Positions 1-56,291 are shown, counted from the first letter of the stretch. The stretch is 56,291 nt of DNA from a virus (IMGVR_UViG_3300047557_001143:1-56291), one strand, 5' to 3'. The notes: a model not told the origin generated them from the letters alone. Program-made: numbers and translations.

Positions 1-765
1 GTTCTGTACGGATTCGGCGCCGCGCCCCAACTGCCTGATGGCACTCCGGTGACCTATCAGCAGGGTGGCGTGCTCTTCCTCAAGCGCTATGTGTACAAGG
101 TGTATGGCCTCGCCTTCGCCCTGACCAAGGTGCTCGTGGAAGACGGCGACCACATCCGTATCGGTCAGGTGTATGCCCGTCACCTTGCACAGTCCCTGGT
201 GGAAACCAAGGAAACCCTGTGCGCCAATGTGCTGAACAACGCCTTCACCGGCGGCCAGTATGCAGGCGGCGACGGCGTGGCGCTGAACAGCGCTTCTCAC
301 CCGATCGTGAACGGCACTTTCTCCAACCTGCTGACCACGGCAGCCAACCTGTCCCAGACCTCTCTGGAGCAGATGCTGATCCAGATCCGTCAGGCTGTGG
401 ACAACAACGGCAAGAAGATTCGTCTGGTGCCCCGCCAAATCGTGGTGGCTCCTGGCAACATCTTCCAGGCCGAAGTGCTGCTGAAGTCCGTGCTGCGTGC
501 CGGTAACGCCAACAACGACATCAACCCGATCAAGTCGATCGGTCTGTTGGACGAAGGCGCTGCTGTCCTGTCGCGTCTGACCTCGCCCACCGCATGGTGG
601 GTGCAGACGGATGCTCCGGAAGGCATGAAACTCATGATGCGCCGTGGCCTGGAGAAGACCATGGAAGGTGACTTTGAGACCGACACCATGCGGTACAAGG
701 CCACCGAGCGTTACGATGTGGGCTTCACCGATCCTCGCGCCATGTACGGCACGCCGGGTGTCTAA
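1..765 (+). CDS. Major capsid protein, C-terminal ~254 aa (5' end wraps to 56245)
   Basis: Frame open from base 1 (VLYGFGAAPQLPDG...), ending MEGDFETDTMRYKATERYDVGFTDPRAMYGTPGV, typical of Mu gpT-like/HK97-fold capsids; follows scaffold and decoration genes across the junction and precedes a terminator. Confidence 0.9.
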   Translation, partial: VLYGFGAAPQLPDGTPVTYQQGGVLFLKRYVYKVYGLAFALTKVLVEDGDHIRIGQVYARHLAQSLVETKETLCANVLNNAFTGGQYAGGDGVALNSASHPIVNGTFSNLLTTAANLSQTSLEQMLIQIRQAVDNNGKKIRLVPRQIVVAPGNIFQAEVLLKSVLRAGNANNDINPIKSIGLLDEGAAVLSRLTSPTAWWVQTDAPEGMKLMMRRGLEKTMEGDFETDTMRYKATERYDVGFTDPRAMYGTPGV

Positions 766-771
766 ATCCAA

Positions 772-797
772 GCGGGGGCTTCGGTCCCCGCGTTTTT
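772..797 (+). terminator. Rho-independent terminator after capsid gene
   Basis: GCGGGGGC-TTCG-GTCCCCGC stem with UUCG loop followed by TTTTT. Confidence 0.85.
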
Positions 798-810
798 AAG
801 GAGCAAGACA

Positions 811-1260
811 ATGGCACAAACCTACTTTGGTAGCACGGTTCGGGCGGGTTCGGGTACTCTGACTGATACCACCGACGGTGGATTCATGGTCCTCATGCAG
901 ACCACGACGGCGACTACGGTCTCCGCGGGTACTGCTGTGACGAGCACGATCACCATCCCGGCGGACTCGCAGATCATCAACTTTTTCATTGACTGCACCA
1001 CGACCCCGGTTGTGGGTGGCGGCACGGCTACGGCTGTGAATGCCACGATCGGCACGGCCGCTGCGGGTACCCAGTACCTGTCGGCGACTGATGTGATTGC
1101 AGGTGGTCGCGCTTCTCTGTCCTTCACCGCGGCTCAACTGACCGCGATGGAAGATGTGAACAACAACACCACTGTTGCTTTCACGATCGATCCCAACGGG
1201 ACGGTTTCAACGACTCAGGGTGTGTACCGCCTCACGGTGGTCTACGCTCAGAAGGTCTAA
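811..1260 (+). CDS. Virion structural protein (Thr-rich, beta-sandwich-like)
   Basis: AAGGAG RBS, directly after capsid gene, Thr/Ala/Gly-rich. Confidence 0.65.
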   Translation: MAQTYFGSTVRAGSGTLTDTTDGGFMVLMQTTTATTVSAGTAVTSTITIPADSQIINFFIDCTTTPVVGGGTATAVNATIGTAAAGTQYLSATDVIAGGRASLSFTAAQLTAMEDVNNNTTVAFTIDPNGTVSTTQGVYRLTVVYAQKV

Positions 1261-1270
1261 GGAGGTCATC

Positions 1271-2317
1271 ATGGGCCAGTTCAAACCGATGGTCAAAATG
1301 ATGACCACCGAGCCTTCGGTGGAGTTGAAACTCAAGAAGGGCGGCGCCGTCACGATGATGAACGGTGGCGTGATGGGTGGCCTTGCGGCCGCTCCGTCTG
1401 CTGCTCCCGCTCGTGGCGGCATGATGCCGACTGCTCGCCCCAAGAAGCCTGGAATGGCCGCTCGTCGCGCTGCGATGATGGGTCGTCCCATGAAGGAAGG
1501 TGGCGAGACTGCAGCCGAGCACAAGGCCGAGATGGCCGCCATCAAGTCCGTGGACCGCAAACTGTCCAAGCACGCCGAAATGGCTGCGTCCAAGGCTCAC
1601 AAGGGCCTGAAGACCGGCGGCGTCGTGATGGGTCAGGGCGGCTTCAAGGCGGGTGGCGTCATCAAGTCCACCAAGGGCGAGACCAAGATGGTCACGGCTG
1701 AAGGTGAGCACCACACCCCCAAGAAGACCGGCGAGGTCGTCATGGGCAAGCCTGCCGGTTATAAGAAGGGCGGCAAGGCTATGGGCGGTTCTTGCTATGC
1801 CAAGGGCGGCGGCGTCGAGGGCAATGTGTCCACGACTCCTCCTGGAAAGACCAACACCACTACGGGTGAGGTCAAGAAGGGCAACGCCGGTGGCTACAAG
1901 AAAGGTGGCTACGCAAAAAAAGCCTTCGCGGCGGGGGGCAGTGTTAACGACACTGGTCGTCCCGTCGCGTATCCCAAGCATCCCGTTTCTCAGCCGATCA
2001 AAAACACCAAGCAGTCGGGCACTTTCAAGCACGGCGGCAAGGTGAAGATGAATGAAGGCGGCAAGGTTCCTGTGGGAGCCCAGTCCGCCATCAAGCAGGC
2101 TGATGCCGAGCGTGCCTATCGTGACTACGAGAAGGCCGAGAAGGCGGAGAATGAGGCCATGCGCGAGACGATCCTCGGAGCACCCGGTCGGATGTTCCGG
2201 GCCGTCAAAGGCTTGTTCAAGGGCGAAGAGAAACCCGCGGGCAGTGTGACCAAGACTGAGAAGTCTGTAACTGTTGCACCGGCCAAGAAGCGTGGCGGAT
2301 CAGTGAAGAAGTGCTGA
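1271..2317 (+). CDS. Lys/Gly/Met-rich putative internal head protein with ~12 xxxGG motifs
   Basis: GGAGG RBS before ATG 1271; repeated LKKGG, MKEGG, FKAGG, YKKGG, YAKGG, FAAGG, FKHGG, MNEGG. Confidence 0.75.
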   Translation: MGQFKPMVKMMTTEPSVELKLKKGGAVTMMNGGVMGGLAAAPSAAPARGGMMPTARPKKPGMAARRAAMMGRPMKEGGETAAEHKAEMAAIKSVDRKLSKHAEMAASKAHKGLKTGGVVMGQGGFKAGGVIKSTKGETKMVTAEGEHHTPKKTGEVVMGKPAGYKKGGKAMGGSCYAKGGGVEGNVSTTPPGKTNTTTGEVKKGNAGGYKKGGYAKKAFAAGGSVNDTGRPVAYPKHPVSQPIKNTKQSGTFKHGGKVKMNEGGKVPVGAQSAIKQADAERAYRDYEKAEKAENEAMRETILGAPGRMFRAVKGLFKGEEKPAGSVTKTEKSVTVAPAKKRGGSVKKC

Positions 2318-8976: not shown

Positions 8977-11070
8977 ATGTCGATGCGTTACCCCGGGGGC
9001 TTCATTGCCTCTACACCTGTTACTGCGGGATACCCTTCGGGAGTATGGACGCAGGCGCAGGCCATCCCGTATCAGGCTCAGAATGTGTGGACTCGGGATC
9101 AGTTTTGGCCCTACACCACCCTGCTGCTGCAAGGCGATGGGGCGGTTAACGGTGCTCAGAACAATACTTTCCTAGACAGCAGTTCCAACAACTTCACCAT
9201 CACCCGGAACGGGAACACGACTCAAGGCAGTTTCACGCCTTATGAGCAGGATGGGTACTGGAGTAATTATTTTGATGGAACGGGTGACTATTTAAGAGTT
9301 GCCGACAGCACTGCGTTTGATCTGCCGGGAGACTTCACTCTTGAGTTTTGGATATATCCAACTGCATCCGGATTCGGTGTAGTGCTTGGAAGTGAAGATA
9401 GTGGCCAAAATGGTTTCGTTGTTTTCAATGGAACCAACATGGGTGTTTATGGTAACGGCGCGTCGATCATCAGCGTGTCAAGCGCGATTGTTTTGAACGC
9501 GTGGCAGCACATTGCCGTTGTTCGTAGCGGGACATCGCTTAAGTTCTATTTGAACGGCACTGAGCGTGGCTCAGCAACAAACTCAACTTCATTTACAGGT
9601 GTGGCCGGAAACGGGTTTGCTGTTGCGGCAACTTATACCAATACTTATATTACAAGCGGCACAGGATATTTTTCAAATGTGCGCCTTGTTAAGAGTGCGG
9701 TTTACACCACCAACTTCACGCCTCCCACAGCCCCGCTGACAGCCATTACAAACACCTCTCTCCTGACCTGCCAGTCCAACAGGTTCATCGACAACTCCAC
9801 CAACGCCTTCGCCATCACCCGTAACGGGGATGTCTCAGTCCAAGCCTTCCAACCCTTCCCCGGTGCTACTACCTACAGTGGCACTGTGTTGGGTGGGAGT
9901 GGGTATTTTGATGGAAGTGGAGACAGCCTAACCCGAGCGTTTACATCTACCACGGATGGGATGTATCCGCAGGGAACCACATACACCGTTGAAGCATGGG
10001 TCTATCCTACTGCAATCAGTGGGTACATTTATGTAACTGAAGCAACCAATACTTCAAATTACGGCACTTGGAAACTTTATATAGGTGGTTCTAGTCAGTT
10101 TGGTTTTGATTATCGCCCGACAACTGGTGGAACATATACAACTGTTGCATCAAGTGCTGCTGTTGCTTTGAATAGTTGGTATCATGTTGCAGTTTCAGTA
10201 TCCGCCGGTAGTGCAAGACTATTTGTAAACGGTACTCAAGTCGGATCAACAACAACCATATCGGCTATTTCATTTACACCTGTAGGTGCAACTGTAGGAA
10301 ATTCAGTCAATGGTTTTGATACTGCGTTTTTTACGGGTTACATCAGCAATTTAAAAATCACGCAAGGAACAGCAAATTACACTTCAAACTTTACGCCGCC
10401 CTCATCGCCTTTGACTGGAGGCAGTCTCTTACTCAACTTCACCAACGCCGGTATCTCTGATGCCGCAGTGATGAACGACTTGGAAACCGTAGGCAATGCC
10501 CAAGTCAGCACCAGTGTGGTGAAGTACGGCACGGGGAGTATGGCGTTTGATGGCAGCGGGGATTACCTCCGTACCCCTGACGGCCCGAATACTGAACTTG
10601 GTAGCGGCGACTTCACCCTTGAGTGTTGGGTCAACTTCAATAGCCTGCCTGCGTCAAACGGCCATCAGGCCACATTCGTGTCGAAGTGGGCGACCAATAA
10701 TGCGTCGTATGAGTTCTACCTGTATAACAACGCAGGCACGCAACAGTTGTACCTGACCTACTCGACGAACGGGACTGCAAGCACAAACCTTGGGGTGAAT
10801 TGGACTCCTGCTACCGGCGTGTGGTATCACATTGCCTGTGTACGCAATGGCGGCAATTTGACCTTTTGGGTGAATGGAACTCAGCAGGGCGCAACGCAGA
10901 CCATCAGCGGGACTTTGTTTGATGGCAGCGCAGGGATTGAGGTTGGCGGGTTTGTCGCTGGCAGCGCGAATACCGTCCTCAACGGCTACATAGACGACCT
11001 CCGCATCACGAAGGCGGCCCGTTACCTGACATCTTTCACTCCCCCGCCTGCGCGGATGCCCGGACAGTAA
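8977..11070 (+). CDS. Concanavalin A/LamG multidomain receptor-binding protein (3 LamG domains)
   Basis: Repeated FDGxGDYL, DFTxExW, WxHIAVVR, GYIxxLRI motifs. Confidence 0.9.
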   Translation: MSMRYPGGFIASTPVTAGYPSGVWTQAQAIPYQAQNVWTRDQFWPYTTLLLQGDGAVNGAQNNTFLDSSSNNFTITRNGNTTQGSFTPYEQDGYWSNYFDGTGDYLRVADSTAFDLPGDFTLEFWIYPTASGFGVVLGSEDSGQNGFVVFNGTNMGVYGNGASIISVSSAIVLNAWQHIAVVRSGTSLKFYLNGTERGSATNSTSFTGVAGNGFAVAATYTNTYITSGTGYFSNVRLVKSAVYTTNFTPPTAPLTAITNTSLLTCQSNRFIDNSTNAFAITRNGDVSVQAFQPFPGATTYSGTVLGGSGYFDGSGDSLTRAFTSTTDGMYPQGTTYTVEAWVYPTAISGYIYVTEATNTSNYGTWKLYIGGSSQFGFDYRPTTGGTYTTVASSAAVALNSWYHVAVSVSAGSARLFVNGTQVGSTTTISAISFTPVGATVGNSVNGFDTAFFTGYISNLKITQGTANYTSNFTPPSSPLTGGSLLLNFTNAGISDAAVMNDLETVGNAQVSTSVVKYGTGSMAFDGSGDYLRTPDGPNTELGSGDFTLECWVNFNSLPASNGHQATFVSKWATNNASYEFYLYNNAGTQQLYLTYSTNGTASTNLGVNWTPATGVWYHIACVRNGGNLTFWVNGTQQGATQTISGTLFDGSAGIEVGGFVAGSANTVLNGYIDDLRITKAARYLTSFTPPPARMPGQ

Positions 11071-11079
11071 GGAAGCACA

Positions 11080-13839
11080 ATGAGCCAACGGTACATCGGT
11101 GGACTGATCTACAACCCGCCCGGTGGGTTCTCGGGGTACTTTGACGGGAATGGGGATTATTTAAGCCTCGCAAGCAATGCGGCGTTTGCGATGGGGACGG
11201 GTGATTTCACCGTCGAGGGGTTCTTATATCTACCCACCACACAAAACTTCGGCACTCTGTTCCTTTCGTCTACTACCGGCTCAGGGGATTCGCTTCATGT
11301 TCAGATCAGCAGCGCCAACAAGGTTCGCGTAACTAACGCAACAACCGAGTTTTTGCTTGGTACTAACGCCATCCCTCTGAATACTTGGTCGCACATTGCA
11401 GTTGTTCGGTCAGGGACAACACTGTCGATTTACCAAGACGGGGTATTGAACGGGTCAACCACAAACAGCACAAACTTCATTCAGAGTGGCGCTCTTGTTG
11501 GGTATGAACCATTTGGTGGAAACTTCTACTTCACTGGCTACATCTCAAATGTGCGTGTGCTGAAGGGCACCGCGCTCTACTCGGGCAGCACTTACACCGT
11601 CCCGTCCGGCCCTCTCCAAGCCATCACCAACACTTCCCTGCTGACCTGTGCCTACCCCACCTTCAGGGATGGCAGCAGCAACAACTTCACCATCACGGTG
11701 AACGGCAACACGGCGGTTAGCGTACAGAACCCCTTCCCGCTGACGGCTCTGCCCAACCCTAACTTGGGCAATCAGGGCAACGGTGTCTACACCATGAGCC
11801 AGTATCAGTCGCTGCGCTCACAGAACCTGTGGCCTGCGGTTGACCCGTACTGGGAGTATGTGACCCTGATGCTGCACGGCAACGGCACCAACGGGGCGCA
11901 GAACAACACCTTCCTCGACAGCAGCACCAACAACTTCACGATCACCCGCAACGGCAACACCACGCAGGGTGCGTTCAGCCCGTATGGGGATAACTGGTCG
12001 AACTACTTTGATGGCACAGGGGATTACCTGAATCTTGGAGGACAGTCCGCGTTTTCTTTTGGAACCGGGGATTTCACTATTGAATTTTGGGTTTATCTTA
12101 ATTCTACTACTGCAAATCTTTCTGATTTTCGTCAAGCATCCACAAATGGCTTGTATCCCGCAATTTATGTAACTAACGGATCTTTGCGTTATTATGTAAA
12201 TTCTTTAGATAGAATAACGAGTAGTACTACTTTAGCGGTTGGTACTTGGTATCATGTTGCTCTTTCTCGTAGTGGCACAAGTACCCGTTTGTTTTTGAAC
12301 GGTGTTCAAGAAGGCTCCACCTACACAGATTCCAATAACTATATAGTTGGACCGGATAGGCCTACTATTGGAATCAGTGGTTTTGATGGAACAGGGAACC
12401 CATTAAACGGCTATCTTTCTAACTATAGAATTGTGAAGGGAACTGCAGTTTATACTTCCAACTTCACCCCGCCTACTGCACCCCTCACCGCAATCACCAA
12501 CACCTCTCTGCTGACCTGTCAGAGTAACCGCTTCCGTGACGCATCTACCAACAACTTCACCATCACGCGCAACGGTGATGTGAGCGTCCAGCGCTTCAGC
12601 CCGTTCAATCCGACTGCGCCCTATGCCGCAGGCACTGATGGCGGGAGTGGGTACTTTGATGGGACGGGGGATTACCTGACGGTTGCCGATAACGCGGCCT
12701 TTCAGTTGGGGTCGGGAGCCTTCACTATTGAGGCTTTCTTCTACTCCACCTCAAGCGGCGATCAGGTCATCATCAGCAAGTGGGGAAGCCCGGACAGTAA
12801 TGCTGCGTGGGAGATCATTTACTACGCGGGCACGCTGTATTGCCAAGTTTCTTCAGGCAGCACCGTTACATCACTGACCACCACAACATTCCCGCTCAAC
12901 CAATGGAACCATGTGGTGATGGTTCGCAGTGGCAACACGCTTTCTGCTTACTTGAACGGAACGCGGTTTGCCACTAATGGCGCTTACTCAAGCACGGTGA
13001 ACAACGGATCAAACGGGGTCAGTATTGGAACTCGTGCCGGTGGCAGCAGTTTCCCGATGGTTGGGTATATCTCCAACGCCCGTGTCGTCAAAGGCACCGC
13101 AGTTTACGACCCAACGCAGTCCACGCTAACCATTCCCACCGCGCCGCTTACGGCCGTCACCAACACATCCCTGCTTTGCAACTTCACCAACGCAGGCATC
13201 CTCGACAACGCGATGATGAACGATCTAGAAACGGTGGGTAACGCTCAGATCAGCACGAGCGTGAGCAAGTTCGGTGGTGGGTCACTGGCGTTTGATGGAA
13301 GCGGGGATTATCTTTCTTCTCCGCAGTCTCAAAATTACTCTTTTGGCACAGGGGACTTCACAATTGAAGGTTGGATATATCTGTCAAGCAACACTGGTGC
13401 TTACAGAACTATCGTTCACATACCGCATTCTTCAGGTTCTGTTCTTGTTAGATTTGGAAGTTCCATTGACTATAGTTCATATTTTCAAGTTTCCACGCTT
13501 GCGACATCTGCTTCAAATGTTTACAGCACCAATCAAAATCAGGCAGCATTGCTAAACAAGTGGGTTCACTTTGCATTTACCCGCAGCAGTTCCACTTGCC
13601 GCGTGTTTTTGGATGGAGTTCAGCAAAACCTTGGCACTGGTGTGACACCGACAAGTTTTCCTAACACCTCATTTTCTGACTCTACAAACATCGTTAATAA
13701 TTCAGCGGTTGGTATTGGTGACGCGATTGGCAACAATATCCCGTTTATTGGCCACATCGACGACCTGAGAATCACCAAGGGATACGCTCGCTACACCGCC
13801 AACTTCACGCCGCAGCGTTCGCAGTGGCAAGACCAGTAA
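11080..13839 (+). CDS. Concanavalin A/LamG multidomain receptor-binding protein (4 LamG domains)
   Basis: Same LamG motifs; linkers paralogous to those of 8977-11070. Confidence 0.9.
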   Translation: MSQRYIGGLIYNPPGGFSGYFDGNGDYLSLASNAAFAMGTGDFTVEGFLYLPTTQNFGTLFLSSTTGSGDSLHVQISSANKVRVTNATTEFLLGTNAIPLNTWSHIAVVRSGTTLSIYQDGVLNGSTTNSTNFIQSGALVGYEPFGGNFYFTGYISNVRVLKGTALYSGSTYTVPSGPLQAITNTSLLTCAYPTFRDGSSNNFTITVNGNTAVSVQNPFPLTALPNPNLGNQGNGVYTMSQYQSLRSQNLWPAVDPYWEYVTLMLHGNGTNGAQNNTFLDSSTNNFTITRNGNTTQGAFSPYGDNWSNYFDGTGDYLNLGGQSAFSFGTGDFTIEFWVYLNSTTANLSDFRQASTNGLYPAIYVTNGSLRYYVNSLDRITSSTTLAVGTWYHVALSRSGTSTRLFLNGVQEGSTYTDSNNYIVGPDRPTIGISGFDGTGNPLNGYLSNYRIVKGTAVYTSNFTPPTAPLTAITNTSLLTCQSNRFRDASTNNFTITRNGDVSVQRFSPFNPTAPYAAGTDGGSGYFDGTGDYLTVADNAAFQLGSGAFTIEAFFYSTSSGDQVIISKWGSPDSNAAWEIIYYAGTLYCQVSSGSTVTSLTTTTFPLNQWNHVVMVRSGNTLSAYLNGTRFATNGAYSSTVNNGSNGVSIGTRAGGSSFPMVGYISNARVVKGTAVYDPTQSTLTIPTAPLTAVTNTSLLCNFTNAGILDNAMMNDLETVGNAQISTSVSKFGGGSLAFDGSGDYLSSPQSQNYSFGTGDFTIEGWIYLSSNTGAYRTIVHIPHSSGSVLVRFGSSIDYSSYFQVSTLATSASNVYSTNQNQAALLNKWVHFAFTRSSSTCRVFLDGVQQNLGTGVTPTSFPNTSFSDSTNIVNNSAVGIGDAIGNNIPFIGHIDDLRITKGYARYTANFTPQRSQWQDQ

Positions 13840-37131: not shown

Positions 37132-37415
37132 GCGAACTATCCGATTTCCAACGCAACTTCCTGCTCGGCCGAGGGGCGGGACAAACCCTGTACACCCAGA
37201 AGGAGTTCGAGGAGCGCCTCGCCCAGGCCAAGGCCGAAATCATGGCCATCGCCATCCAAACCTCCAAGCAAGCGGTCCAGATCGAACGCCGAGCCTGCGC
37301 AGAACTCGTTATGAGCCTCGCAAACGAGGAGGATGAGGGTGAGGTATCAACCGCGCTAAAAAACGCCGCCATGGCCGTTTTAAGGCGGATTCCGGGGCAG
37401 TTTGATGGCGAGTAG
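37128..37415 (+). CDS. Hypothetical protein
   Basis: GTGA-coupled start; ERRACAEL motif. Confidence 0.6.
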   Translation: MSELSDFQRNFLLGRGAGQTLYTQKEFEERLAQAKAEIMAIAIQTSKQAVQIERRACAELVMSLANEEDEGEVSTALKNAAMAVLRRIPGQFDGE

Positions 37416-37725
37416 TCTGTCGCCAACCCAACGCAGCCTCGCCTACTTGCGGGAGCAGGGCTATTTGGTGTCCATCGTGGAGCGGTGGAACCCTCATGCC
37501 CGGATTCGGCAGGACCTGTGGGGATGGTGCGATCTCCTGGCCATCCGCAAGGGGGAGGTCCTGGCGGTGCAGGTGACGGCCTCGGCCGTCTCGGCCCGGA
37601 TCAAGAAGATCCAGGAGTCGGAGACGATCGCCGCGGTGCGGGATGCGGGTATCCGGGTGGAAGTTCACGGATGGCGTAAGAACAGCAAGGGGAAGTATGT
37701 TCTCAGGATCGAGGACATCTCTTGA
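37405..37725 (+). CDS. Holliday-junction resolvase-like PD-(D/E)XK nuclease
   Basis: LREQGY...CDLLAIRKGEVLAVQVT. Confidence 0.7.
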   Translation: MASSLSPTQRSLAYLREQGYLVSIVERWNPHARIRQDLWGWCDLLAIRKGEVLAVQVTASAVSARIKKIQESETIAAVRDAGIRVEVHGWRKNSKGKYVLRIEDIS

Positions 37726-37875: not shown

Positions 37876-38385
37876 ATGAGGAAGCGCAGCAGTTACCGCC
37901 CCAAGGGCGCCAACCCCAAGGCACACCTGATGGCCATCCAGGGGGCCTCCAAACTGAGCATCGACGATGTGCTGAAGTTCGTAGCGCCCCTAGACATGGC
38001 CATCGAGGCGGCAAGGCAGGCCAAGGCCACGAAGGAGCACTGGCAAGCGGTCTTCAACGCCATCAACCTCATCGAGGAGTTGGTGCGCAGGAAGGTGGCG
38101 CAGGACGAGGACGGGGCGATAGAGGCCATACAGCAGGCCGTAATCGACGCCCTGGACCGCCTGAAGGCTACGGGAAGCAAGACCCTCAAGGCGCAGGAGA
38201 TCAACGCCCTGATGGACCTTCTGGGGGTGTATTCAGACCTGCTGTCGGGGATCACCCACAGCGAACTCTTCGAGGCAGAACTGGGCGTGCAGCGCCGGCT
38301 GATCCGGGTGCTGTCGCAGGGCCCGAGACCGGGCGAGATCGTAGTAAGAGCAAAAGGTGACCGATATGAGCGAAAGAATGATTGA
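37876..38385 (+). CDS. Hypothetical helical protein
   Basis: MRKRSSYRPK start; 169 aa. Confidence 0.65.
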   Translation: MRKRSSYRPKGANPKAHLMAIQGASKLSIDDVLKFVAPLDMAIEAARQAKATKEHWQAVFNAINLIEELVRRKVAQDEDGAIEAIQQAVIDALDRLKATGSKTLKAQEINALMDLLGVYSDLLSGITHSELFEAELGVQRRLIRVLSQGPRPGEIVVRAKGDRYERKND

Positions 38386-41445: not shown

Positions 41446-41451
41446 AAGTTA

Positions 41452-41832: not shown

Positions 41833-41834
41833 CT

Positions 41835-42739: not shown

Positions 42740-42823
42740 TAGGGAAACTACCTAGTTGCAATGTCTTTGACTTTGCGTTAAAGTCCTAATCACTGCACAA
42801 CGCAGGGTAACTGGAGAAACATC
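42740..42823 (+). promoter_or_regulatory. Early promoter unit 2
   Basis: TAGGGAAACTACCTA box, TTGCAA-17-TAAAGT, hairpin, GGGTAACTGGAG RBS. Confidence 0.75.
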
Positions 42824-44163: not shown

Positions 44164-44766
44164 ATGCCCCGCAAATCCACCAAAACAGCGCCTGAGGCCT
44201 CCAAAGCCCCTGACCAAGGGGTAGATACCACCCAGGCCGCAGAAACCGCCGTAGAGCGCAAGAAACCCGGCCCGCCAAAAGGCTCAGGTGGCCGCCCCTC
44301 CAAGTACACCCCGGAACTGGCAGCAGAGATCTGCGTAAGGCTAAGTAACGGAGAGCCGCTAAGGCAAATATGCCGGGATGACCATATGCCCGCTTGGACT
44401 GCGGTGTATGAGTGGATGGCCCGCGACAAAGATCTTTCCGAACGCATCGCGCACGCTCGGGAGCAGGGCTTTGAGGCTCTGGCTGAGGAGGCGCTCCTGA
44501 TCGCTGACACGCCGGTGTTCGGCCAGAAGCAGGTGATGACTGACCAGGGGACTTCCACCACGGTGGAGGATATGTTGGGCCACCGCAAACTCCAGATCGA
44601 GACCCGGCTGAAACTCCTGGCGAAGTGGAACCCGAAGAAGTATGGGGATCGAGTAGCCCTGGCCGGGGATGCGGAGAACCCGCTGAAGGTGGAGGCGGAT
44701 GTCACCATCTTCGACGCCCTGATCCAGAACCTAGAGGCCAAGCGGCAGACGAAGTCGCATGGCTGA
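44164..44766 (+). CDS. terS: Terminase small subunit
   Basis: GRPSKYTPELAAEIC...GEPLRQIC, RKLQIETRLKLLAKWNPKKYGD. Confidence 0.9.
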   Translation: MPRKSTKTAPEASKAPDQGVDTTQAAETAVERKKPGPPKGSGGRPSKYTPELAAEICVRLSNGEPLRQICRDDHMPAWTAVYEWMARDKDLSERIAHAREQGFEALAEEALLIADTPVFGQKQVMTDQGTSTTVEDMLGHRKLQIETRLKLLAKWNPKKYGDRVALAGDAENPLKVEADVTIFDALIQNLEAKRQTKSHG

Positions 44767-46177
44767 CCCGCTGATCGAGACCCTCAAGGATGAGGAAGTC
44801 CGGCGGAAGTTCACCCTGCTACCTGCTGACCGGCAGGCAGCCTTCGCCTGGAGGGCTAAGTGGCTCTCCCAGGCTCACGACCACCAAATCCTGCCTCCTG
44901 GGGACTGGTGGACCATCTGGCTCCTCCTGGCCGGCCGGGGAGCGGGCAAGACCCGCACTGCTGCGGAGCAGATCGGATGGTGGGCCTGGGAGTCTCCCGG
45001 AACCCGGTGGCTCGTAGCAGCCCCGACAAGCGCGGATGTCCGGGCGACCTGCTTTGAGGGGGATTCGGGCTTGATCGCCGTGATTCCCGAGGTCCTGGTG
45101 GCCGACTACAACCGGGCGTACCACGAGATCAAGTTGACCAACGGCAGCCTGATCAAGGGCATCCCGGCCTCTGAGCCTGAGCGCTTCCGCGGTGGCCAGT
45201 GGCACGGAGCGTGGTGCGACGAGTTGGCCGCCTGGGACTACCTGCAGGACGCCTGGGATCAGATCCAGTTCTCCGTCCGCCTGGGCAAGAGAACCCGAAT
45301 ACTCGCCACGACCACCCCAAAGCCCAAGGACTTGATCGTCGACCTCATCGGCCGGGAAGGGGATGATGTCCACCTGACGACAGCGAGCACTTACTCCAAC
45401 CTGGACAACCTCGCGCCATCCTTTCAGCGGCAGATCCTGCAGTACGAGGGGACGAAACTCGGCCGCCAGGAGATCTACGCTGAGATCATCGATCCTGAGG
45501 AGGGCGGCATCGTCAGCCGGGACTGGTTCCGCCTGTGGCCTGCAGACAAGCCCATCCCGAAACTGGAGTTCGTCGTCCAGTCCTACGACTGCGCCTTCAC
45601 GGAGAAGCAGATCAACGACCCGACCGCGGCGATCACCTTCGGCGTCTTCCGCCCCCTGGATGGCCCGATGTCCGTCCTGATCATCGACTGTTGGCAGGAC
45701 CGGCTGCAGTACCCGGATCTCCGGCCGAAGGTCATCGAGGAGTACGAGACCGTCTTCGGCGAGGGCAAGGACAAGAAGCGGGTGGACCTCGTCCTGGTGG
45801 AGGACAAGGCCGCGGGGATCTCCCTAATCCAGGACCTGCAGCGGGCTCATGTCCCGGTGAGGGCCTACAACCCCGGCAGGGCGGACAAGGTGCAGCGGCT
45901 ATCCATCGTGGCCAACATCATCAAGGCCGGGAGGGTGTGGGTGCCGGAGAGCATGAACCGCAAGGGCTATGTCCGGGACTGGGCGGAGGGGATGGTCTCC
46001 CAGGTCTGCTCCTTCCCCAACACGGATCACGACGACTTCTGCGATGCCCTGTCACAGGCCCTGCGGTATCTCCGAGACGCAGGCTTCCTGAACATCGACC
46101 CGCCGCCGGACGAGATCGACGAGGAGGACTATGTGGATGCAGGGGTGAGGAAGCGTGAAAACCCCTACTCTGCTTGA
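44759..46177 (+). CDS. terL: Terminase large subunit
   Basis: Walker A GRGAGKT, Walker B WCDE, ATTTP, nuclease SYDCAF and HDDFCDA. Confidence 0.95.
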   Translation: MADPLIETLKDEEVRRKFTLLPADRQAAFAWRAKWLSQAHDHQILPPGDWWTIWLLLAGRGAGKTRTAAEQIGWWAWESPGTRWLVAAPTSADVRATCFEGDSGLIAVIPEVLVADYNRAYHEIKLTNGSLIKGIPASEPERFRGGQWHGAWCDELAAWDYLQDAWDQIQFSVRLGKRTRILATTTPKPKDLIVDLIGREGDDVHLTTASTYSNLDNLAPSFQRQILQYEGTKLGRQEIYAEIIDPEEGGIVSRDWFRLWPADKPIPKLEFVVQSYDCAFTEKQINDPTAAITFGVFRPLDGPMSVLIIDCWQDRLQYPDLRPKVIEEYETVFGEGKDKKRVDLVLVEDKAAGISLIQDLQRAHVPVRAYNPGRADKVQRLSIVANIIKAGRVWVPESMNRKGYVRDWAEGMVSQVCSFPNTDHDDFCDALSQALRYLRDAGFLNIDPPPDEIDEEDYVDAGVRKRENPYSA

Positions 46178-46215: not shown

Positions 46216-46386
46216 TCGTCTGTCGGGCTGGTAACCCGACAGAAGCACAAGTAGCGAATTGAGAACCCTGCTTAGGCGGGTTTTGGAAAGAGTGGAGTGG
46301 TGTGAAAAAGGCGATCGCGGCCGGTGCGCACACTACGAAGCGGCAATACCAAAGCCCAAAGCCCCCTAAGCAGGGTTTTTTCTTTG
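46216..46386 (+). ncRNA. Structured RNA (5' hairpin, long stem, pseudoknot, U-tract)
   Basis: TCTGTCGGG/CCCGACAGA hairpin; 46261-86 pairs with 46356-81; loop TGGTA complementary to TACCA (46347-51). Confidence 0.65.
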
Positions 46387-50811: not shown

Positions 50812-53325
50812 ATGGCTACTGAATTCCCTATCGACCCCGAATACGGCCGTTTCATCGAGGGCATCCCCGACGAGATGGAGGAGGAGATCGAGGTCGAACT
50901 GCCTTCTGAAGAGGCCGAGATCGAAGAACTCCCGGACGGGTCGGCCATCGTGAAGATGGACACCCAGGGTCCGGAGGAGGACGAAGACTTCTACCAGAAC
51001 CTCGCTGAGGTCATCGACCCGCTTGAACTGAGCACGATGGCCATGCGGTTCACGAAGTTGATCGACGGCGACAAGGAAGCCCGCTCCGAGCGCGACAAGC
51101 AGTACGAGGAGGGCCTCAAGCGTACCGGCATGGGCAAGGATGCTCCTGGAGGCGCTACCTTTATGGGCGCTTCCAAGGTCGTGCACCCGGTCATGGCCGA
51201 GGCTTGCGTGGACTTTGCCTCACGAGCCATCAAGGAACTATTCCCGCCTGACGGTCCTGTGCGGACCAAGATCATGGGTCAGGTCGACGAGGAGAAGACT
51301 CAGCGGGCCGAGCGCAAGCGCGACTACATGAACTGGCAGTTGACGGAGCAGATCGAAGAGTTCCGCGACGAGCAGGAGCAACTCCTGACCCAGTTGCCTC
51401 TGGGTGGCTCGCAGTACATGAAACTCTGGTACGACGAGGAGAAGAAGCGGCCCTGTGCTGAGTTTTTGCCTATCGACCGGGTTCTGGTGCCGTTTGCTGC
51501 CACGAACTTCTACACCGCGCAGCGGGCTACCGAGATCCACGAGATCACGGAGATGGAGTTCAAGCGCCGCATCCGTTCTGGGATGTACCGCGACATCAAC
51601 CTGATCCGGGCCACGATGGAGCCGGAGGAGTCGAAGTCGCAGAAGGCCAACGACAAGATTGAAGGCCGCAAGTGGAACGACAACGAAGACGGTCTGCGCA
51701 ATGTCTTCCATGTCTACACTTGGTTGGAGATTGAAGAGGACAAGCGGTCCAAGGGCCAGTTGGCTCCCTACATCCTGATGATCGACGAACTGGAGAACGA
51801 GGTCGTCGGTCTGTACCGGAACTGGGAGGATGGCGACGAGACGATGACCAAACTCGACTGGATCGTCGAGTTCAAGTTCATCCCCTGGCGTGGTGCTTAC
51901 GCTATCGGCCTGCCCCACCTGATCGGCGGTCTGTCTGCAGCCCTGACGGGCGCTCTGCGGGCGCTGCTCGACACTGCGCACATCAACAACTCGGCCACGA
52001 TGCTGAAGTTGAAGGGGGCGAAGGTATCGGGCCAGTCTCAGCAGCCGGATGTCACGCAGGTCATTGAGATCGAGGCGGCTCCTGGTGTGGACGACATCAA
52101 GAAGATCGCCATGCCGATGCCGTTCAATCCTCCCTCTGCGGTGCTTCTGGAACTCCTGGGATGGCTCGACAAGGCCGCCAAGGGTGTCGTGACGACCGCG
52201 GAGGAGAAGATCGCCGATGTCAACGCCCAGGCTCCGGTGGGCACGACCCAGGCTCTGATCGAGCAGGGTGCGGCTGTCTTCTCGGCCATCCACGCTCGTC
52301 TGCATGATGCTCAGAGCCGGGTGCTGAAGATTCTGGGCCGGATCAACCGGTGGTATCTGGACGATCAGCGCAAGGGTGAGGTGGTCGCCGACCTGGAGAT
52401 CGAGCGCACCGACTTCAACCGCAACACGGATGTTGTGCCGGTGTCTGACCCGCACATCTTCTCCGAGACGCAGCGCATGGCCCAGATCCAGGCCGTCATG
52501 GCTCGGGCTGATGCTCACCCGGATCTCTACGATGTCCGGGCGGTGGAGGAGCGGTTCCTCAAGCAGTTGAAGGTGCCCGGGATCAACGAGATCTTGAAGG
52601 ACACCCCGGCGCCCGAGGAGCGCAACTCTGCTGATGAGAATGTGGCCATGGCTCTGGGGCAGAACGCCTACGCCTACATTCAGCAGGACCATCTGGCGCA
52701 CATCCAGTCGCACCTGGACTTTGCCCTGAACCCGGCTTTCGGCAGCAATCCGATCATGGCCTCGTTCTACCTGCCGCGCTCTCTGGAGCACATCAAGCAG
52801 CACATGGTGCTGTGGTACCTCAGCCGTACCAACGGTTATGTGAGGCAAGTGCGTGACGGCAAGCCGATCACCGAGGCTGAGTACGAGGACAAGCGCCTGA
52901 CGGCTGAACTGGACAAGGTGTTTGCTGTGACCTCGCAGCACATCATGCTTGACGCGGAGAAGGCCTTCAGCAAGATCCTGCCGCTAATTCAGCAACTCCT
53001 GCAGGCCATGCAGCAGATGACTCCCAAGCCCCAGTTGCCGCCTGAGGCGCAGGTGCTGATGGAGACCTCAATGGCCGAAACCAACCGCAGGGCCCAGAGA
53101 GACCAGGGCGAACTTGCCCTGCAGGGCCAGAAACTGCAGTTGGATGCCGCAAAGTCTGAGCGCCGGGATCAGTTGGATGTGGCTCTGAACGCCGCGGACA
53201 ACCTGACCAAGGAGCGCATTGAAACTGCACGCCTGACCCAGAAGGATCAGGAGTTGCAAGCCGAGCAGTTCGACACTGCAATCCGCCTCCAGAACGAGGC
53301 ACAACGAAGCCTAGGAGCATTTTGA
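50812..53325 (+). CDS. Portal protein
   Basis: 837 aa; HPVMAEACVDF, ELFPPDGPVRTKI, LPLGGSQYMK, PVGTTQALIEQG; Gln-rich barrel tail. Confidence 0.9.
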   Translation: MATEFPIDPEYGRFIEGIPDEMEEEIEVELPSEEAEIEELPDGSAIVKMDTQGPEEDEDFYQNLAEVIDPLELSTMAMRFTKLIDGDKEARSERDKQYEEGLKRTGMGKDAPGGATFMGASKVVHPVMAEACVDFASRAIKELFPPDGPVRTKIMGQVDEEKTQRAERKRDYMNWQLTEQIEEFRDEQEQLLTQLPLGGSQYMKLWYDEEKKRPCAEFLPIDRVLVPFAATNFYTAQRATEIHEITEMEFKRRIRSGMYRDINLIRATMEPEESKSQKANDKIEGRKWNDNEDGLRNVFHVYTWLEIEEDKRSKGQLAPYILMIDELENEVVGLYRNWEDGDETMTKLDWIVEFKFIPWRGAYAIGLPHLIGGLSAALTGALRALLDTAHINNSATMLKLKGAKVSGQSQQPDVTQVIEIEAAPGVDDIKKIAMPMPFNPPSAVLLELLGWLDKAAKGVVTTAEEKIADVNAQAPVGTTQALIEQGAAVFSAIHARLHDAQSRVLKILGRINRWYLDDQRKGEVVADLEIERTDFNRNTDVVPVSDPHIFSETQRMAQIQAVMARADAHPDLYDVRAVEERFLKQLKVPGINEILKDTPAPEERNSADENVAMALGQNAYAYIQQDHLAHIQSHLDFALNPAFGSNPIMASFYLPRSLEHIKQHMVLWYLSRTNGYVRQVRDGKPITEAEYEDKRLTAELDKVFAVTSQHIMLDAEKAFSKILPLIQQLLQAMQQMTPKPQLPPEAQVLMETSMAETNRRAQRDQGELALQGQKLQLDAAKSERRDQLDVALNAADNLTKERIETARLTQKDQELQAEQFDTAIRLQNEAQRSLGAF

Positions 53326-55071: not shown

Positions 55072-55074
55072 GAC

Positions 55075-55623
55075 ATGGAATCTCGTCTCAAGAAATCACT
55101 GAAGAGCGGCGGCCGTCATGATCGCGCAAGCGAGGACGCGAGTCGTCTGCCTCCTCAAGAAAAGTTCATTTCTTCGCAGGAGCGTCGCAAGATGTGGAGC
55201 GATGAATGGACGCAGTCGGCACTGCCCAAGACCCCGGAGATTCCGGGATGGCACCTGTGTTGGCTTTCAACCACCAACGCCTACGACACCATCGACAAGC
55301 GTATGAGGCTCGGGTATGTACCGGTGATGGCCGAAGAGTTACCCGGATTCCAAAACTACAAAGTCAAGGCAGGCGAGTTCGTTGGACAAATCTCGTGCAA
55401 CGAGATGCTGCTGTTCAAACTTCCCATGGAGGTCTATCAAGACATCATGCGGGAACTGCACTACGAGAAGCCCCGCGAGGAGGAGGAGAAGATCCGAGTC
55501 CAAGTGGAGAATCTGCAGGGTGCGCGGGACAGCAACGGGAAATCCCTTGTGCGGTTGGAAGGCGACGGGCTTGGACAGTTCGATTCACAGCCAACCAATT
55601 CTGCCCCCGTATTCGAGGGCTAA
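55075..55623 (+). CDS. Conserved head-region protein
   Basis: PEIPGWHLCW...RLGYVPV...EMLLFKLP. Confidence 0.7.
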   Translation: MESRLKKSLKSGGRHDRASEDASRLPPQEKFISSQERRKMWSDEWTQSALPKTPEIPGWHLCWLSTTNAYDTIDKRMRLGYVPVMAEELPGFQNYKVKAGEFVGQISCNEMLLFKLPMEVYQDIMRELHYEKPREEEEKIRVQVENLQGARDSNGKSLVRLEGDGLGQFDSQPTNSAPVFEG

Positions 55624-55632
55624 GGAGCAAAA

Positions 55633-56229
55633 ATGTCTGCTACCAATGCTCCGTTCGGTCTGCGCCCCGCGTTCCATCCATCTGGTCTGGATCGCGCTCA
55701 GGCTCTGGCCAACGGTATCGTCTCGGCTTATGCCAACAACATCCTCAAGGGTCAACCGGTCAAGTATGTGACCGGCGGCACCATTGAAGAAGTCACTGGC
55801 ACGGAAGCCTTCGTGGGCGCCTTCGCGGGCGTCGAGTGGACCGACACGACTGGTCGTCGTCGCGTCTCCAACTACTGGCCGGCCCAGACCGCGTACGAGA
55901 CTGGCTCGTGCGTGGCCTATTTCTACAACGATCCCAACATCGTGTACGAAATCCAGGCTGACGGCGCGGTTGCCCAGTCGTCTATCGGCGACGAAGCCAA
56001 CTTCGTTAACCTGACGGCGGGTTCTACCGTCACCGGCCTTTCGCAGTGCCGCCTGAATTCGACGCTTGTGGGCGCGAACAACTCGGGCCAAATGCGTATC
56101 GTCGATATTGCCCCCTATCCGGGCAATGACTGGGGTGATGCTTTCACGATCGTCCGTGTGACGGTTGCGGCGCATCAATTCGCTCAAGTTCGCGTCTCGG
56201 GTGCTAACTACACCCCGGTCGCTATCTAA
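55633..56229 (+). CDS. Capsid decoration/cement protein
   Basis: NAPFGLRP, GAFAGVEWTD, DPNIVYEIQ, GSTVTGLS; directly before the capsid gene. Confidence 0.75.
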   Translation: MSATNAPFGLRPAFHPSGLDRAQALANGIVSAYANNILKGQPVKYVTGGTIEEVTGTEAFVGAFAGVEWTDTTGRRRVSNYWPAQTAYETGSCVAYFYNDPNIVYEIQADGAVAQSSIGDEANFVNLTAGSTVTGLSQCRLNSTLVGANNSGQMRIVDIAPYPGNDWGDAFTIVRVTVAAHQFAQVRVSGANYTPVAI

Positions 56230-56244
56230 TAAGGAGGGCGAATC

Positions 56245-56291
56245 ATGGCAGCCCCGATGCGTAGTACAGACTTTCGTTCCATCGTTGAGCC
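56245..56291 (+). CDS. Major capsid protein N-terminus (partial)
   Basis: AAGGAGG RBS then MAAPMRSTDFRSIVEP, running off the window end. Confidence 0.85.
   Translation, partial: MAAPMRSTDFRSIVE

What the first reader, a model, noticed from the sequence alone, without database searches (positions are those of the whole stretch)
1..56291. Apparent genome-wide absence of AGCT and ACGT
Seen: in the many stretches I scanned, including the low-GC LamG cassettes, the HNH gene and non-coding regions, I found no AGCT or ACGT. Codon pairs visibly detour around them: K/E/Q-L is written AAACTG, GAACTG, AAGTTG or CAGTTG and D/N/Y-V is written GATGTG, AATGTG or TATGTG, despite C-ending codon preference elsewhere. 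GATC, GGCC, CCGG, TCGA and GTAC are common. Roughly 200 of each would be expected by chance. Inference: strong selection by host AluI-like and MaeII/HpyCH4IV-like restriction, which is a host fingerprint; even recently acquired modules come from the same purged gene pool.
Basis: partly seen in the sequence, partly recalled or inferred. Interest (0 to 1): 0.75.

Follow-up and report, generated by a model that had tools for sequence, protein, structure and literature searches.

The report
Phage genome purged of restriction sites
This 56-kb freshwater phage genome contains not one AGCT or ACGT and lacks about a dozen other short restriction-type words; this is most likely a record of the DNA-cutting defences of its still unknown host, a known kind of viral escape seen here in an unusually thorough form.

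Summary
Observation confirmed. The window is a whole phage record (56,291 bp, 58% GC). It has 0 AGCT and 0 ACGT. Expected numbers are 126-218 by four composition nulls, and 167±10 and 171±9 when synonymous codons are shuffled.

- CCAGC/GCTGG: 5 found, about 120-190 expected.
- RCATGY: 0 found, 19-62 expected.
- Eleven other 6-bp palindromes, so 13 of 48 testable palindromes are purged.

The avoidance is made by synonymous detours. For example, AAG, GAG and CAG never precede CTN (0 of 108).

Relatives from 23 different metagenomes share the AGCT and CCAGC purge. A sister clade has normal counts of these words but lacks other palindromes (CTGCAG, GCCGGC, TGCGCA, AGGCCT) that the window keeps. 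Each phage therefore carries its own barcode.

No DNA methyltransferase gene was found. The one nuclease-like gene apparently confined to purged relatives also occurs in unpurged phages.

Best reading (0.85): selection by host restriction-modification systems. The host and its enzymes were not identified. This is a known kind of thing, a new and extreme member.

The parts
1..56291 (.). Whole phage record. It has no AGCT, ACGT, RCATGY, GCGCGC, CGCGCG, CTCGAG, TCGCGA, TTCGAA or GATATC, and one each of GGATCC, ACGCGT, CAATTG and ATGCAT.
   Evidence: One search shows that the window is the whole genome held. One search gives CheckV completeness 100 and the IMG/VR class 'linear'.
10957..10961 (+). 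Residual GCTGG (CCAGC on the minus strand), inside the first LamG gene.
12588..12592 (+). Residual CCAGC, the only one in this orientation, inside the second LamG gene.
20099..20103 (+). Residual GCTGG, within the local string GCTGGTGG.
26837..26841 (+). Residual GCTGG.
46227..46231 (+). Residual GCTGG, in the spacer after the terminase gene.
1..765 (+). Major capsid protein gene, open at the window's start.
   Evidence: Phage_capsid_4, E 2.1e-11; 81% nucleotide identity to the capsid gene of MW202545.
8977..11070 (+). LamG-domain tail or fibre protein (51% GC), purged like the rest of the genome.
   Evidence: Laminin_G_3, E 4e-56..
11080..13839 (+). Second LamG-domain protein (51% GC), also purged.
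   Evidence: Laminin_G_3, E 8.5e-69..
44759..46177 (+). Large terminase subunit. Used to collect relatives and build the tree.
   Evidence: Terminase_6N and Terminase_6C..
50812..53325 (+). Portal protein.
   Evidence: phrog_1216..
37402..37725 (+). Small conserved protein (107 aa) with a weak likeness to the Hjc / PD-(D/E)XK nuclease fold. It was tested as a possible cause of the purge and rejected.
37876..38385 (+). The real 169-aa gene here (GC3 0.81). The overlapping 196-aa ORF at 37770-38360 is spurious. It has a sub-threshold hit to RE_HindIII, and it is also present in the unpurged sister.

Best explanation
This is a non-temperate-looking tailed phage from fresh water. Its genome has been cleared by natural selection of the recognition words of its host population's restriction enzymes.

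How it would work: a genome with no site cannot be cut, so the phage needs no protective methylation. Any mutation that recreates a site is removed the next time the phage enters a restricting cell.

What is shown:
- The words are absent far beyond every null model.
- They are avoided by synonymous codon choice.
- New substitutions still avoid creating them.
- The set of missing words differs between close relatives, in both directions.
- No DNA methyltransferase gene is present.

What is inferred:
- The agents are restriction-modification systems. These would be Type II for the palindromes, and Type III or IIS-like for the asymmetric CCAGC.
- The barcode reflects the host's enzyme repertoire.
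- The different barcodes mean different hosts or host strains.
For: Depletion.
- AGCT 0 and ACGT 0, against 167 ± 10 and 171 ± 9 under synonymous-codon shuffling.
- CCAGC plus GCTGG: 5, against about 180.
- RCATGY: 0, against 19-62.
- 13 of 48 testable 4- and 6-bp palindromes are at or below 10% of expectation.

Synonymous route.
- Codon-context counts are all-or-none.
- At 43 positions where the unpurged sister G1 has AGCT, the window has AACT (20) or AGTT (8), and keeps the same amino acids in 28.
- At 64 ACGT positions in G1, the window has ATGT in 28 and keeps the same amino acids in 40. The background for same amino acids is 73%.

Ongoing selection.
- The same substitutions moved to other positions of the same base and codon position create 24.9 ± 4.8, and 0 of 1000 runs were as low as 1.
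- L004 gives 0 against 7.2 ± 2.6.

Lineage pattern.
- The 3 closest loci: AGCT 0/104, ACGT 2/60, CCAGC 0/87.
- A clade of 20 loci: 1/639, 137/396, 3/538.
- These 23 loci come from 23 different metagenome identifiers.
- A nested clade of 5 loci and 56 outer relatives have normal counts.

Two-way barcodes. The window keeps CTGCAG 56/24, GCCGGC 31/27, TGCGCA 20/20 and AGGCCT 24/17, which are 0 in G1. GCCGGC and TGCGCA are also 0 in G2, where AGGCCT is 1/15.

Partial ACGT loss is context-specific. In the 20-locus clade, YACGTR is 3 of 203 residual sites and SACGTS is 9 of 203. In the unpurged clade these are 13% and 28%. That is what longer recognition words would give.

No self-protection. PF00145, PF01555 and PF02086 are not found in six frames of the window or of four relatives.

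No integrase. PF00589 is not found. This fits the report that avoidance is stronger in non-temperate phages (PMC6286503, abstract).

CCAGC is a documented recognition word. It is the site of a Type III methyltransferase, ModD1 of Neisseria meningitidis (PMC4417156, passages).

AGCT methylation occurs in freshwater microbes (PMC6329791, passages).
Against: - No host and no restriction gene was identified, so the link between a missing word and an enzyme is inferred for every word.
- The large survey of phages reports that avoidance of Type III sites is very rare and that avoidance of Type I and IIG sites is not seen (PMC6286503, abstract). The near-total loss of the asymmetric CCAGC in both orientations is therefore not the textbook case.
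- Samples of four metagenome-assembled genomes (27-120 kb each), into which related phage contigs had been binned, show no comparable depletion. In the Burkholderiaceae one, GCGCGC is 48/73, TCGCGA 26/30 and CTCGAG 17/17.
- In four other samples, short contigs at least 90% like the terminase gene carry variants that would create forbidden words: 4 of the 40 listed would, against 4.9% of all possible third-position changes. Near relatives with sites therefore live in the same waters.
- The replacements are mostly C-to-T type transitions, which is also what decay of methylated cytosine would give.
Confidence: 0.85

Rival explanations
1. The motifs are targets of a sequence-specific host defence, or of some other selective process, that is not classical restriction-modification. 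The unexplained elimination of AGCT in clade-A pandoraviruses would be a parallel.
For: - AGCT is totally absent from two pandoravirus genomes of about 2 Mb, and the authors excluded a restriction-modification explanation there (bioRxiv 10.1101/712018: abstract, Results part 1 and Discussion read).
- No host enzyme was identified here.
- The loss of the asymmetric CCAGC in both orientations is atypical for Type III systems (PMC6286503, abstract).
Against: - AGCT is only one of about 14 missing words here. Nearly all the others are short palindromes of the kind Type II enzymes recognise, and the set changes between sisters.
- CCAGC is a known Type III word.
- In bacteria, restriction-modification is the established cause of this pattern.
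Confidence: 0.06
2. The phage makes its own site-specific nuclease or nucleases to destroy host DNA, and has removed the target words from its own genome to spare itself.
For: - Two small ORFs were found only in purged relatives within the terminase sample: 37402-37725 (93-96% identical) and 42503-42742.
- The first has a weak likeness to Hjc / PD-(D/E)XK nucleases. The Atlas score is 0.90-0.91, which the tool itself calls often chance. The model has pLDDT 75, and its best PDB matches have TM 0.36-0.50.
- ORF 37876-38385 has a sub-threshold RE_HindIII hit: E 0.005, 16.5 bits against a cut-off of 25.3.
Against: - Homologues of 37402-37725 were found on 79 further phage loci. Only one is purged of AGCT, and that one is the G2 contig itself. 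Loci with copies 87-92% identical have normal counts, for example 60/77.
- The 169-aa protein is also present in the unpurged sister, at 52% identity.
- About 14 different words would need many nucleases, and no such genes are seen.
- The 79-aa ORF is too small and has no family.
Confidence: 0.04
3. The loss is mutational rather than selective. Host methyltransferases methylate the phage's cytosines in AGCT and ACGT, and deamination converts them to AGTT and ATGT.
For: At positions orthologous to sites in the unpurged sister, the window mostly has the C-to-T products or their complements: AACT or AGTT in 28 of 43, and ATGT or ACAT in 32 of 64.
Against: - These are also the only synonymous options in the commonest reading frames.
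- Decay alone leaves a residue, not 0 of about 170. This is inference from the behaviour of CpG in methylated genomes, which is recalled.
- Decay does not prevent new sites from arising, yet they do not arise: 1 against 24.9 ± 4.8.
- It does not explain CCAGC, where the known modification is on adenine, nor RCATGY and the other palindromes.
- It may contribute to the speed of the loss.
Confidence: 0.03
4. The absence is an assembly, sequencing or library artefact.
For: - The record is a metagenome assembly.
- Methylated motifs are known to cause systematic errors in some long-read base callers (recalled).
Against: - 23 related loci from 23 different metagenome identifiers show the same AGCT and CCAGC absence, while relatives of similar distance do not.
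- 20 public runs in 9 studies hold part of the stretch.
- Four runs from four studies were laid on the terminase gene.
- Reading frames are intact and amino acids are conserved at the avoided positions.
Confidence: 0.01

Closest known systems
Restriction-site avoidance in phage genomes, as surveyed by Rusinov et al. 2018 (PMC6286503; abstract read)
   Same: Short, mostly palindromic words are eliminated. The effect is strongest in phages that look non-temperate. Complete or near-complete elimination is reported for about a tenth of viral genomes.
   Different: - Two different 4-mers, an asymmetric 5-mer, a degenerate 6-mer and eleven further 6-mers are purged together here.
- The survey reports avoidance of Type III sites as very rare.
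- The host here is unknown, so no site is tied to an enzyme.
- The survey's supplementary tables could not be seen and may list comparable cases.
Large enterobacterial phages (345-359 kb) that lack GCGC, as reported in Poirot et al. 2019 (bioRxiv 10.1101/712018; Results read)
   Same: A whole 4-bp palindrome is missing from a phage genome, and this is attributed to HhaI-like host restriction.
   Different: There it is one 4-mer in much larger genomes. Here it is two 4-mers plus many longer words in 56 kb, with sister phages that differ.
Absence of AGCT in clade-A pandoraviruses (same paper; abstract, Results part 1 and Discussion read)
   Same: The same word, AGCT, is at zero. The loss is clade-specific and the replacements are undirected.
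   Different: - Those are eukaryotic giant viruses. Only AGCT is affected, and ACGT is normal there.
- Restriction-modification was excluded experimentally there.
- Here AGCT is one of many missing restriction-type words in a bacterial virus.
Type III methyltransferase ModD1 of Neisseria meningitidis, recognition word CCAGC (PMC4417156; passages read)
   Same: The same asymmetric 5-base word. It shows that systems reading CCAGC exist, and in a betaproteobacterium.
   Different: - ModD1 is described as a phase-variable epigenetic regulator.
- No homologue was sought or found in a host of this phage.
- Type III cutting is generally said to need two oppositely oriented sites (recalled), which would not demand near-total loss in both orientations.
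Phage T7 and EcoP15I: escape from a Type III enzyme by keeping all sites in one orientation (recalled, not from a call)
   Same: An asymmetric word under selection from a host enzyme.
   Different: The word is almost eliminated here rather than kept in one orientation. The five residual sites are 4 in one orientation and 1 in the other.

Membership tests
Anti-restriction by recognition-site avoidance | The word is far rarer than composition and coding constraints allow. | tested here: met
   AGCT and ACGT are 0 against 126-218. The minimum over 200 synonymous shuffles is 137 and 144.
Anti-restriction by recognition-site avoidance | The avoided words have the form of restriction sites: short palindromes, or short asymmetric words of Type IIS or III. 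| tested here: met
   13 purged of 48 testable palindromes. CCAGC is a documented Type III word. The matching of words to named commercial enzymes is recalled, not tested.
Anti-restriction by recognition-site avoidance | The host carries active restriction systems for exactly these words. | not testable with these tools
   The host is unknown. There is no tRNA. Only 5 distant terminase matches lie in binned genomes. The epimerase is about 70% identical across many phyla. No spacer-like match was found in 401 genomes of the order of G006, whose record title reads Burkholderiaceae. Samples of the binned genomes are not depleted.
Anti-restriction by recognition-site avoidance | Avoidance is maintained by selection: new sites are removed and protein sequence is spared. 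| tested here: met
   1 against 24.9 ± 4.8, with 0 of 1000 runs as low.. Caveat: this covers only the terminase and portal genes, and L002 and L003 are nearly the same sequence.
Anti-restriction by recognition-site avoidance | Relatives exposed to other enzyme sets show other patterns. | tested here: met
   Barcodes differ in both directions between W, G1, G2 and G4. That their hosts differ is inferred.
Anti-restriction by recognition-site avoidance | The phage does not protect itself by its own methylation. | tested here: met
   Three methyltransferase families are absent in six frames. Other families or base modifications are not excluded.
Pandoravirus-type AGCT anomaly | A single word (AGCT) is lost, other palindromes are normal, and restriction-modification is excluded. 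| tested here: not met
   ACGT and about 12 other words are lost as well. Restriction-modification is not excluded here.
Type III escape by strand bias (T7 / EcoP15I type) | Sites are retained but all lie in one orientation. | tested here: not met
   only 5 sites are left, 4 in one orientation and 1 in the other. The word is eliminated rather than oriented.

The most novel reading that the evidence does not exclude
The host population of this phage clade carries an unusually dense and fast-changing set of short-word restriction systems, with at least 13-17 words per phage barcode. Among them is a CCAGC-reading system that cuts regardless of site orientation, so that an asymmetric word is driven almost to zero. 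This has hardly been documented for phages. If so, phage barcodes of missing words could be read as a direct census of the restriction repertoires, and of the strain-level host partitioning, of uncultured freshwater bacteria.
Probability: 0.3. Interest if true: 0.6.

Novelty: new member of a known kind. Interest (0 to 1): 0.5.

Why it matters
The case shows how completely and how specifically restriction enzymes can shape a phage genome in nature. Two of the sixteen 4-bp palindromes are at zero, about a quarter of the testable palindromes are gone, and the sets differ between sisters whose terminases are 86-91% identical to the window's.

The barcodes give a culture-free handle on which defence systems matter in freshwater bacteria. 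They could help match phages to hosts once methylomes of the same waters are available.

The near-loss of an asymmetric 5-mer is a useful test case for the view that Type III systems rarely select for avoidance.

In practice, the genome would be uncut by a long list of common laboratory enzymes.

Tried and rejected
Host identification failed.
- No tRNA.
- Only 5 distant terminase matches (67-75% identity) in genome collections, on contigs binned into Burkholderiales-type and Caulobacter genomes. One such genome holds three different related phage contigs, so the binning says little.
- The epimerase gene is about 70% identical to genes in many phyla.
- A DNA search of 17.8 kb against 401 genomes of the order of G006 (record title Burkholderiaceae) gave only conserved-gene fragments and 25-28-nt matches at borderline E-values. 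Two genomes share the same match. I did not accept these as spacers.
- Samples of four binned genomes show no matching depletion.

Near-identical phage records. There are none in the phage collection. The best match is 81% identity over the capsid gene only. That record has AGCT 52/179.

Donors of the LamG module. None is closer than 51% protein identity.

Genes that could explain the purge.
- The Hjc-like 107-aa protein was rejected.
- The 169-aa protein with a weak RE_HindIII hit was rejected.
- Ten early ORFs specific to the unpurged sister have no Pfam family, so how it copes is unknown.

Reads laid from four other studies.
- The pieces are 60-438 nt and come from a mixed population of relatives, so they cannot be assigned to the purged lineage.
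- They neither test nor support purity of the lineage.
- 29 of the 69 variant places were not shown.

Degenerate-motif scan without a ratio filter. It was dominated by compositional heterogeneity and was replaced by the filtered scan.

Bipartite Type I words were not scanned, because expected counts are too low for a 56-kb genome.

Literature. Searches found no report of a phage lacking both AGCT and ACGT. This covers the held library only.

Supplementary files of the papers were not available.

Gene set. My ORF set was a greedy longest-ORF call. At least one member (37770-38360) is spurious. This affects the codon-shuffle null only marginally.


Full report
WHAT THE WINDOW IS. The window is the entire record held for this genome. 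It is an IMG/VR virus record of 56,291 bases, rated 100% complete and 'linear', with 58% G+C. It is a tailed phage. Genes identified:
- major capsid protein at 1-765, open at the start;
- an SU10-type adaptor-like protein at 4306-5376 (E 1.2e-5, 26.3 bits, just under the curated cut-off of 27) and two LamG-domain proteins at 8977-13839;
- large terminase at 44759-46177, a PcfJ-domain giant protein, an NAD-dependent epimerase and a PAPS-reductase-like protein;
- portal at 50812-53325 and a replication initiator;
- a GroES-like protein.

No tRNA was found, and no tyrosine integrase. The phage collection holds no close relative. The best match covers only the capsid gene, at 81% identity, in a spring-water phage.

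AGCT and ACGT each occur 0 times.

| Null model | AGCT expected | ACGT expected |
|---|---|---|
| Base composition | 208 | 208 |
| Trinucleotide Markov | 138 | 126 |
| Dinucleotide-preserving shuffles | 218 ± 13 | 165 ± 12 |
| Synonymous codons shuffled within each gene (200 runs) | 167 ± 9.6, minimum 137 | 171 ± 8.9, minimum 144 |

The synonymous shuffle is the strictest null, because it leaves proteins and codon usage unchanged.

The codon detours are all-or-none:
- AAG, GAG and CAG are never used before a CTN codon (0 of 108), although they make up 69-82% of these codons elsewhere.
- GAC, AAC, TAC and CAC are never used before GTN (0 of 141).
- After a codon ending in AG, leucine is always TTG or TTA (54 of 54).
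- GCT and CGT never follow a codon ending in A.
- ACG and AGC never precede T.

The low-GC LamG genes and the roughly 2 kb outside my ORF set are equally clean. The 'HNH gene' could not be confirmed.

I scanned all words of 4-6 bases, including degenerate ones, against Markov expectations.
- The asymmetric pentamer CCAGC/GCTGG has 5 copies, against 121-188 expected.
- RCATGY has 0, against 52-62 expected, or 19 ± 3 by the synonymous shuffle.
- Several hexamers are missing as well.

I tested 48 palindromes. These are the 4- and 6-bp palindromes expected at least 10 times in the window and in two full-length sisters, leaving out hexamers built on AGCT or ACGT. The window has 13 of them at or below a tenth of expectation: ACGT, AGCT, ACATGT, ACGCGT, ATGCAT, CAATTG, CGCGCG, CTCGAG, GCATGC, GCGCGC, GGATCC, TCGCGA and TTCGAA. 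GATATC is also 0, against 6 expected.

The five residual CCAGC sites lie at 10957, 12588, 20099, 26837 and 46227. Four are in one orientation and one in the other, and two are inside the LamG genes.

RELATIVES. The terminase finds 451 relatives in IMG/VR, of which the best 80 were kept. It finds five in genome collections. On a terminase tree of 86 rows, the window sits in a well-supported clade of 30 (SH-aLRT 99). Counts below are observed/expected by a first-order Markov model.

| Group | AGCT | ACGT | CCAGC |
|---|---|---|---|
| 3 closest loci (97% terminase identity) | 0/104 | 2/60 | 0/87 |
| Clade of 20 loci | 1/639 | 137/396 | 3/538 |
| L024 | 12/50 | 0/21 | 0/40 |
| Clade of 5 loci, nested in the clade of 30 | 246/280 | 227/191 | 387/232 |
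| 56 outer relatives | 2764/3023 | 1538/1686 | 2771/1967 |

The 23 purged loci carry 23 different metagenome identifiers. Part of the stretch is held by 20 public runs in 9 studies of fresh, estuarine and aquaculture water. An artefact is therefore excluded.

On the tree, the trait needs at least two changes inside a clade whose terminases are 86-97% identical to the window's. Synonymous sites between these phages are close to saturated: nucleotide identity is 78% at 85% protein identity. The direction of change therefore cannot be read off.

BARCODES DIFFER IN BOTH DIRECTIONS. I fetched three longer relatives:
- G1, 52.6 kb, from the 'unpurged' clade;
- G2, 52.0 kb, from the purged 20-locus clade;
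- G4, 30.2 kb, also from the purged 20-locus clade.

G1 is not unpurged in general. It has 12 of the 48 palindromes purged, and G2 has 17.

| Pattern | Words |
|---|---|
| Purged in W, G1 and G2 | ACGCGT, CGCGCG, CTCGAG, GCGCGC, TCGCGA, TTCGAA |
| Purged in W and G2 only | AGCT, ACATGT, ATGCAT, CAATTG, GCATGC |
| Purged in W only | ACGT |
| Purged in W and G1 but not G2 | GGATCC |
| Purged in G1 and G2 but at expectation in W | AGCGCT, AGGCCT, GCCGGC, TGCGCA (W: 7/16, 24/17, 31/27, 20/20) |

CTGCAG is 0/20 in G1 and 56/24 in the window.

The whole terminase family is depleted in several CG-rich hexamers. In the 56 outer relatives, GCGCGC is 31/277, TCGCGA 27/160, TTCGAA 16/161 and GTGCAC 33/226.

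The partial loss of ACGT in the 20-locus clade is not a weaker version of the window's state. It is confined to certain flanks. YACGTR makes up 3 of 203 residual sites, and SACGTS 9 of 203. In the unpurged clade these are 32 and 71 of 254. That is what enzymes reading 6-base words built on ACGT would produce.

HOW THE SITES WERE LOST AND ARE KEPT OUT. I aligned 15 orthologous genes between the window and G1 (13.8 kb).
- G1 has 43 AGCT sites. The window has AACT (20) or AGTT (8) at most of them, and keeps the same amino acids at 28.
- G1 has 64 ACGT sites. The window has ATGT at 28, and keeps the same amino acids at 40.
- The background for any 4-base window is 73% with the same amino acids, so proteins were spared to about the usual degree.

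Selection is still acting.
- The same substitutions placed at random positions of the same base and codon position create 24.9 ± 4.8, and none of 1000 runs was as low as 1.
- L004 gives 0 against 7.2 ± 2.6.
- L024 gives 2 against 10.7 ± 3.1.
- L002 repeats L003 and is not independent.

WHAT IT IS NOT.
- Self-methylation. The three main DNA methyltransferase families are absent in six frames from the window and from five related records, including G1, G2 and G4.
- A phage-borne nuclease with self-avoidance. In the terminase sample, two small ORFs are confined to purged phages.
  - The first, at 37402-37725, is 93-96% conserved and has a weak Hjc / PD-(D/E)XK likeness.
  - It belongs to a family of more than 700 phage proteins. 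Of 79 further loci that carry it, only the G2 contig itself is purged of AGCT.
  - The 169-aa protein at 37876-38385 has a sub-threshold RE_HindIII hit. It is also present in G1.
- Pure mutational decay. Decay cannot hold a count at zero, nor stop new sites from arising. It may speed up the loss.

WHAT REMAINS OPEN. The host is unknown. The titles of the binned genomes that contain related contigs point to Burkholderiales-type Betaproteobacteria and Caulobacter. One such genome holds three different related phage contigs, and samples of these genomes show no matching depletion. The epimerase gene and a DNA search of 401 genomes gave nothing usable.

Short contigs from four other studies show that relatives carrying AGCT, ACGT or CCAGC live in the same waters. 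This agrees with the unpurged clade and cannot be resolved further.

The LamG module has no relative closer than 51% protein identity. Of 80 such loci, 16 have one of the three words at or below 15% of expectation, and none of those 16 has more than one of them so depleted.

COMPARISON WITH WHAT IS KNOWN. Site avoidance is a classical anti-restriction strategy. A survey of about 4,000 phages found complete or near-complete elimination in about a tenth of genomes. It found avoidance mostly for orthodox Type II sites, very rarely for Type III, and more strongly in non-temperate phages (PMC6286503, abstract).

Whole 4-mers missing from viral genomes have been reported: GCGC in five large enterobacterial phages, and AGCT in two pandoraviruses. 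In the pandaviruses' case, that is the pandoraviruses, restriction was excluded and the cause is unknown (10.1101/712018).

CCAGC is the word of the Type III methyltransferase ModD1 of Neisseria meningitidis (PMC4417156). CCAGCC is methylated in the activated-sludge bacterium Casimicrobium huifangae SJ-1 (PMC13515534, Table 3). AGCT methylation has been seen in lake microbes (PMC6329791).

The names of commercial enzymes that cut the other words (AluI, MaeII, NspI, BamHI, BssHII, XhoI, NruI and so on) are recalled and were not tested.

VERDICT. The interpretation as host restriction pressure is the best supported (0.85) but rests on inference, because no host enzyme was found. It is a new and unusually thorough member of a known kind. 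The points of interest are the multiplicity of purged words, the near-loss of an asymmetric 5-mer, and the sister-phage barcodes that differ in both directions.

Noticed in passing
window 37402-37725 (+): A 107-aa protein that is 93-96% identical in relatives whose neighbouring genes are only 67-78% identical. It belongs to a family of 736 phage proteins and has no Pfam family. Many residues are invariant (for example D44, E52, Q57, K68, K69), and it has a weak Hjc / PD-(D/E)XK fold likeness (pLDDT 75; TM 0.36-0.50). It is probably a structure-specific nuclease of phage DNA metabolism.
   Followed up: yes
window 37770-38385: The longest ORF here (37770-38360, 196 aa, GC3 0.38) is spurious. The real gene is 37876-38385 (169 aa, GC3 0.81), which is 70-72% conserved in relatives. 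It has sub-threshold hits to Hypoth_Ymh and RE_HindIII.
   Followed up: partly
window 35472-36308 (+): A PAPS-reductase-like gene (phrog_424, E 1.7e-48). It is absent from G1, G2 and G4 and was found in only 2 of 86 related loci. Its role, possibly in DNA or sulfur chemistry, was not examined.
   Followed up: no
window 38982-42398: A block of genes absent from all three longer relatives, apart from partial matches to the last ORF. It includes an NAD-dependent sugar epimerase that is about 70% identical to bacterial genes of many phyla, and a membrane protein with a weak GPI2-like hit. It looks like a surface-sugar modification moron, and it is as free of the forbidden words as the rest of the genome.
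   Followed up: partly
window 20099-20106: One of the five residual GCTGG sites is part of GCTGGTGG, the string known as Chi in Escherichia coli (recalled). No significance was tested.
   Followed up: no
window, whole; G1 = L091-L093: CTGCAG is twice as common as expected in the window (56 against 24) and entirely absent from the sister G1 (0 against 20). TGGCCA is about three times over-represented in all four phages.
   Followed up: partly
L064, L062, L075, L187, L191, L195 and others: Unrelated or distant freshwater phage contigs each lack a single word. Examples: GATC 0/30 in L064, ACGT 0/12 in L062 and 8/43 in L075, AGCT 0/12 in L187, ACGT 0/13 in L191, CCAGC 0/28 in L195. Single-word purges seem common in these waters.
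   Followed up: partly
G006 (genome holding L082), contigs C16, C91, C254: One binned Burkholderiaceae genome contains three different contigs with portal genes related to the window's (68%, 65% and 33% identity). This suggests that phage contigs were co-binned rather than that a prophage is present.
   Followed up: no
window 1-765 and 56291: The record starts inside the capsid gene, with roughly 50 codons missing compared with the 304-codon capsid gene of MW202545. The contig is therefore either cut within a circularly permuted genome or lacks a short piece.
   Followed up: no
window 53649-54089 (+): A phage-encoded GroES-like co-chaperonin (Cpn10, E 1.4e-7). It is 93% identical in the sister G1.
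   Followed up: no
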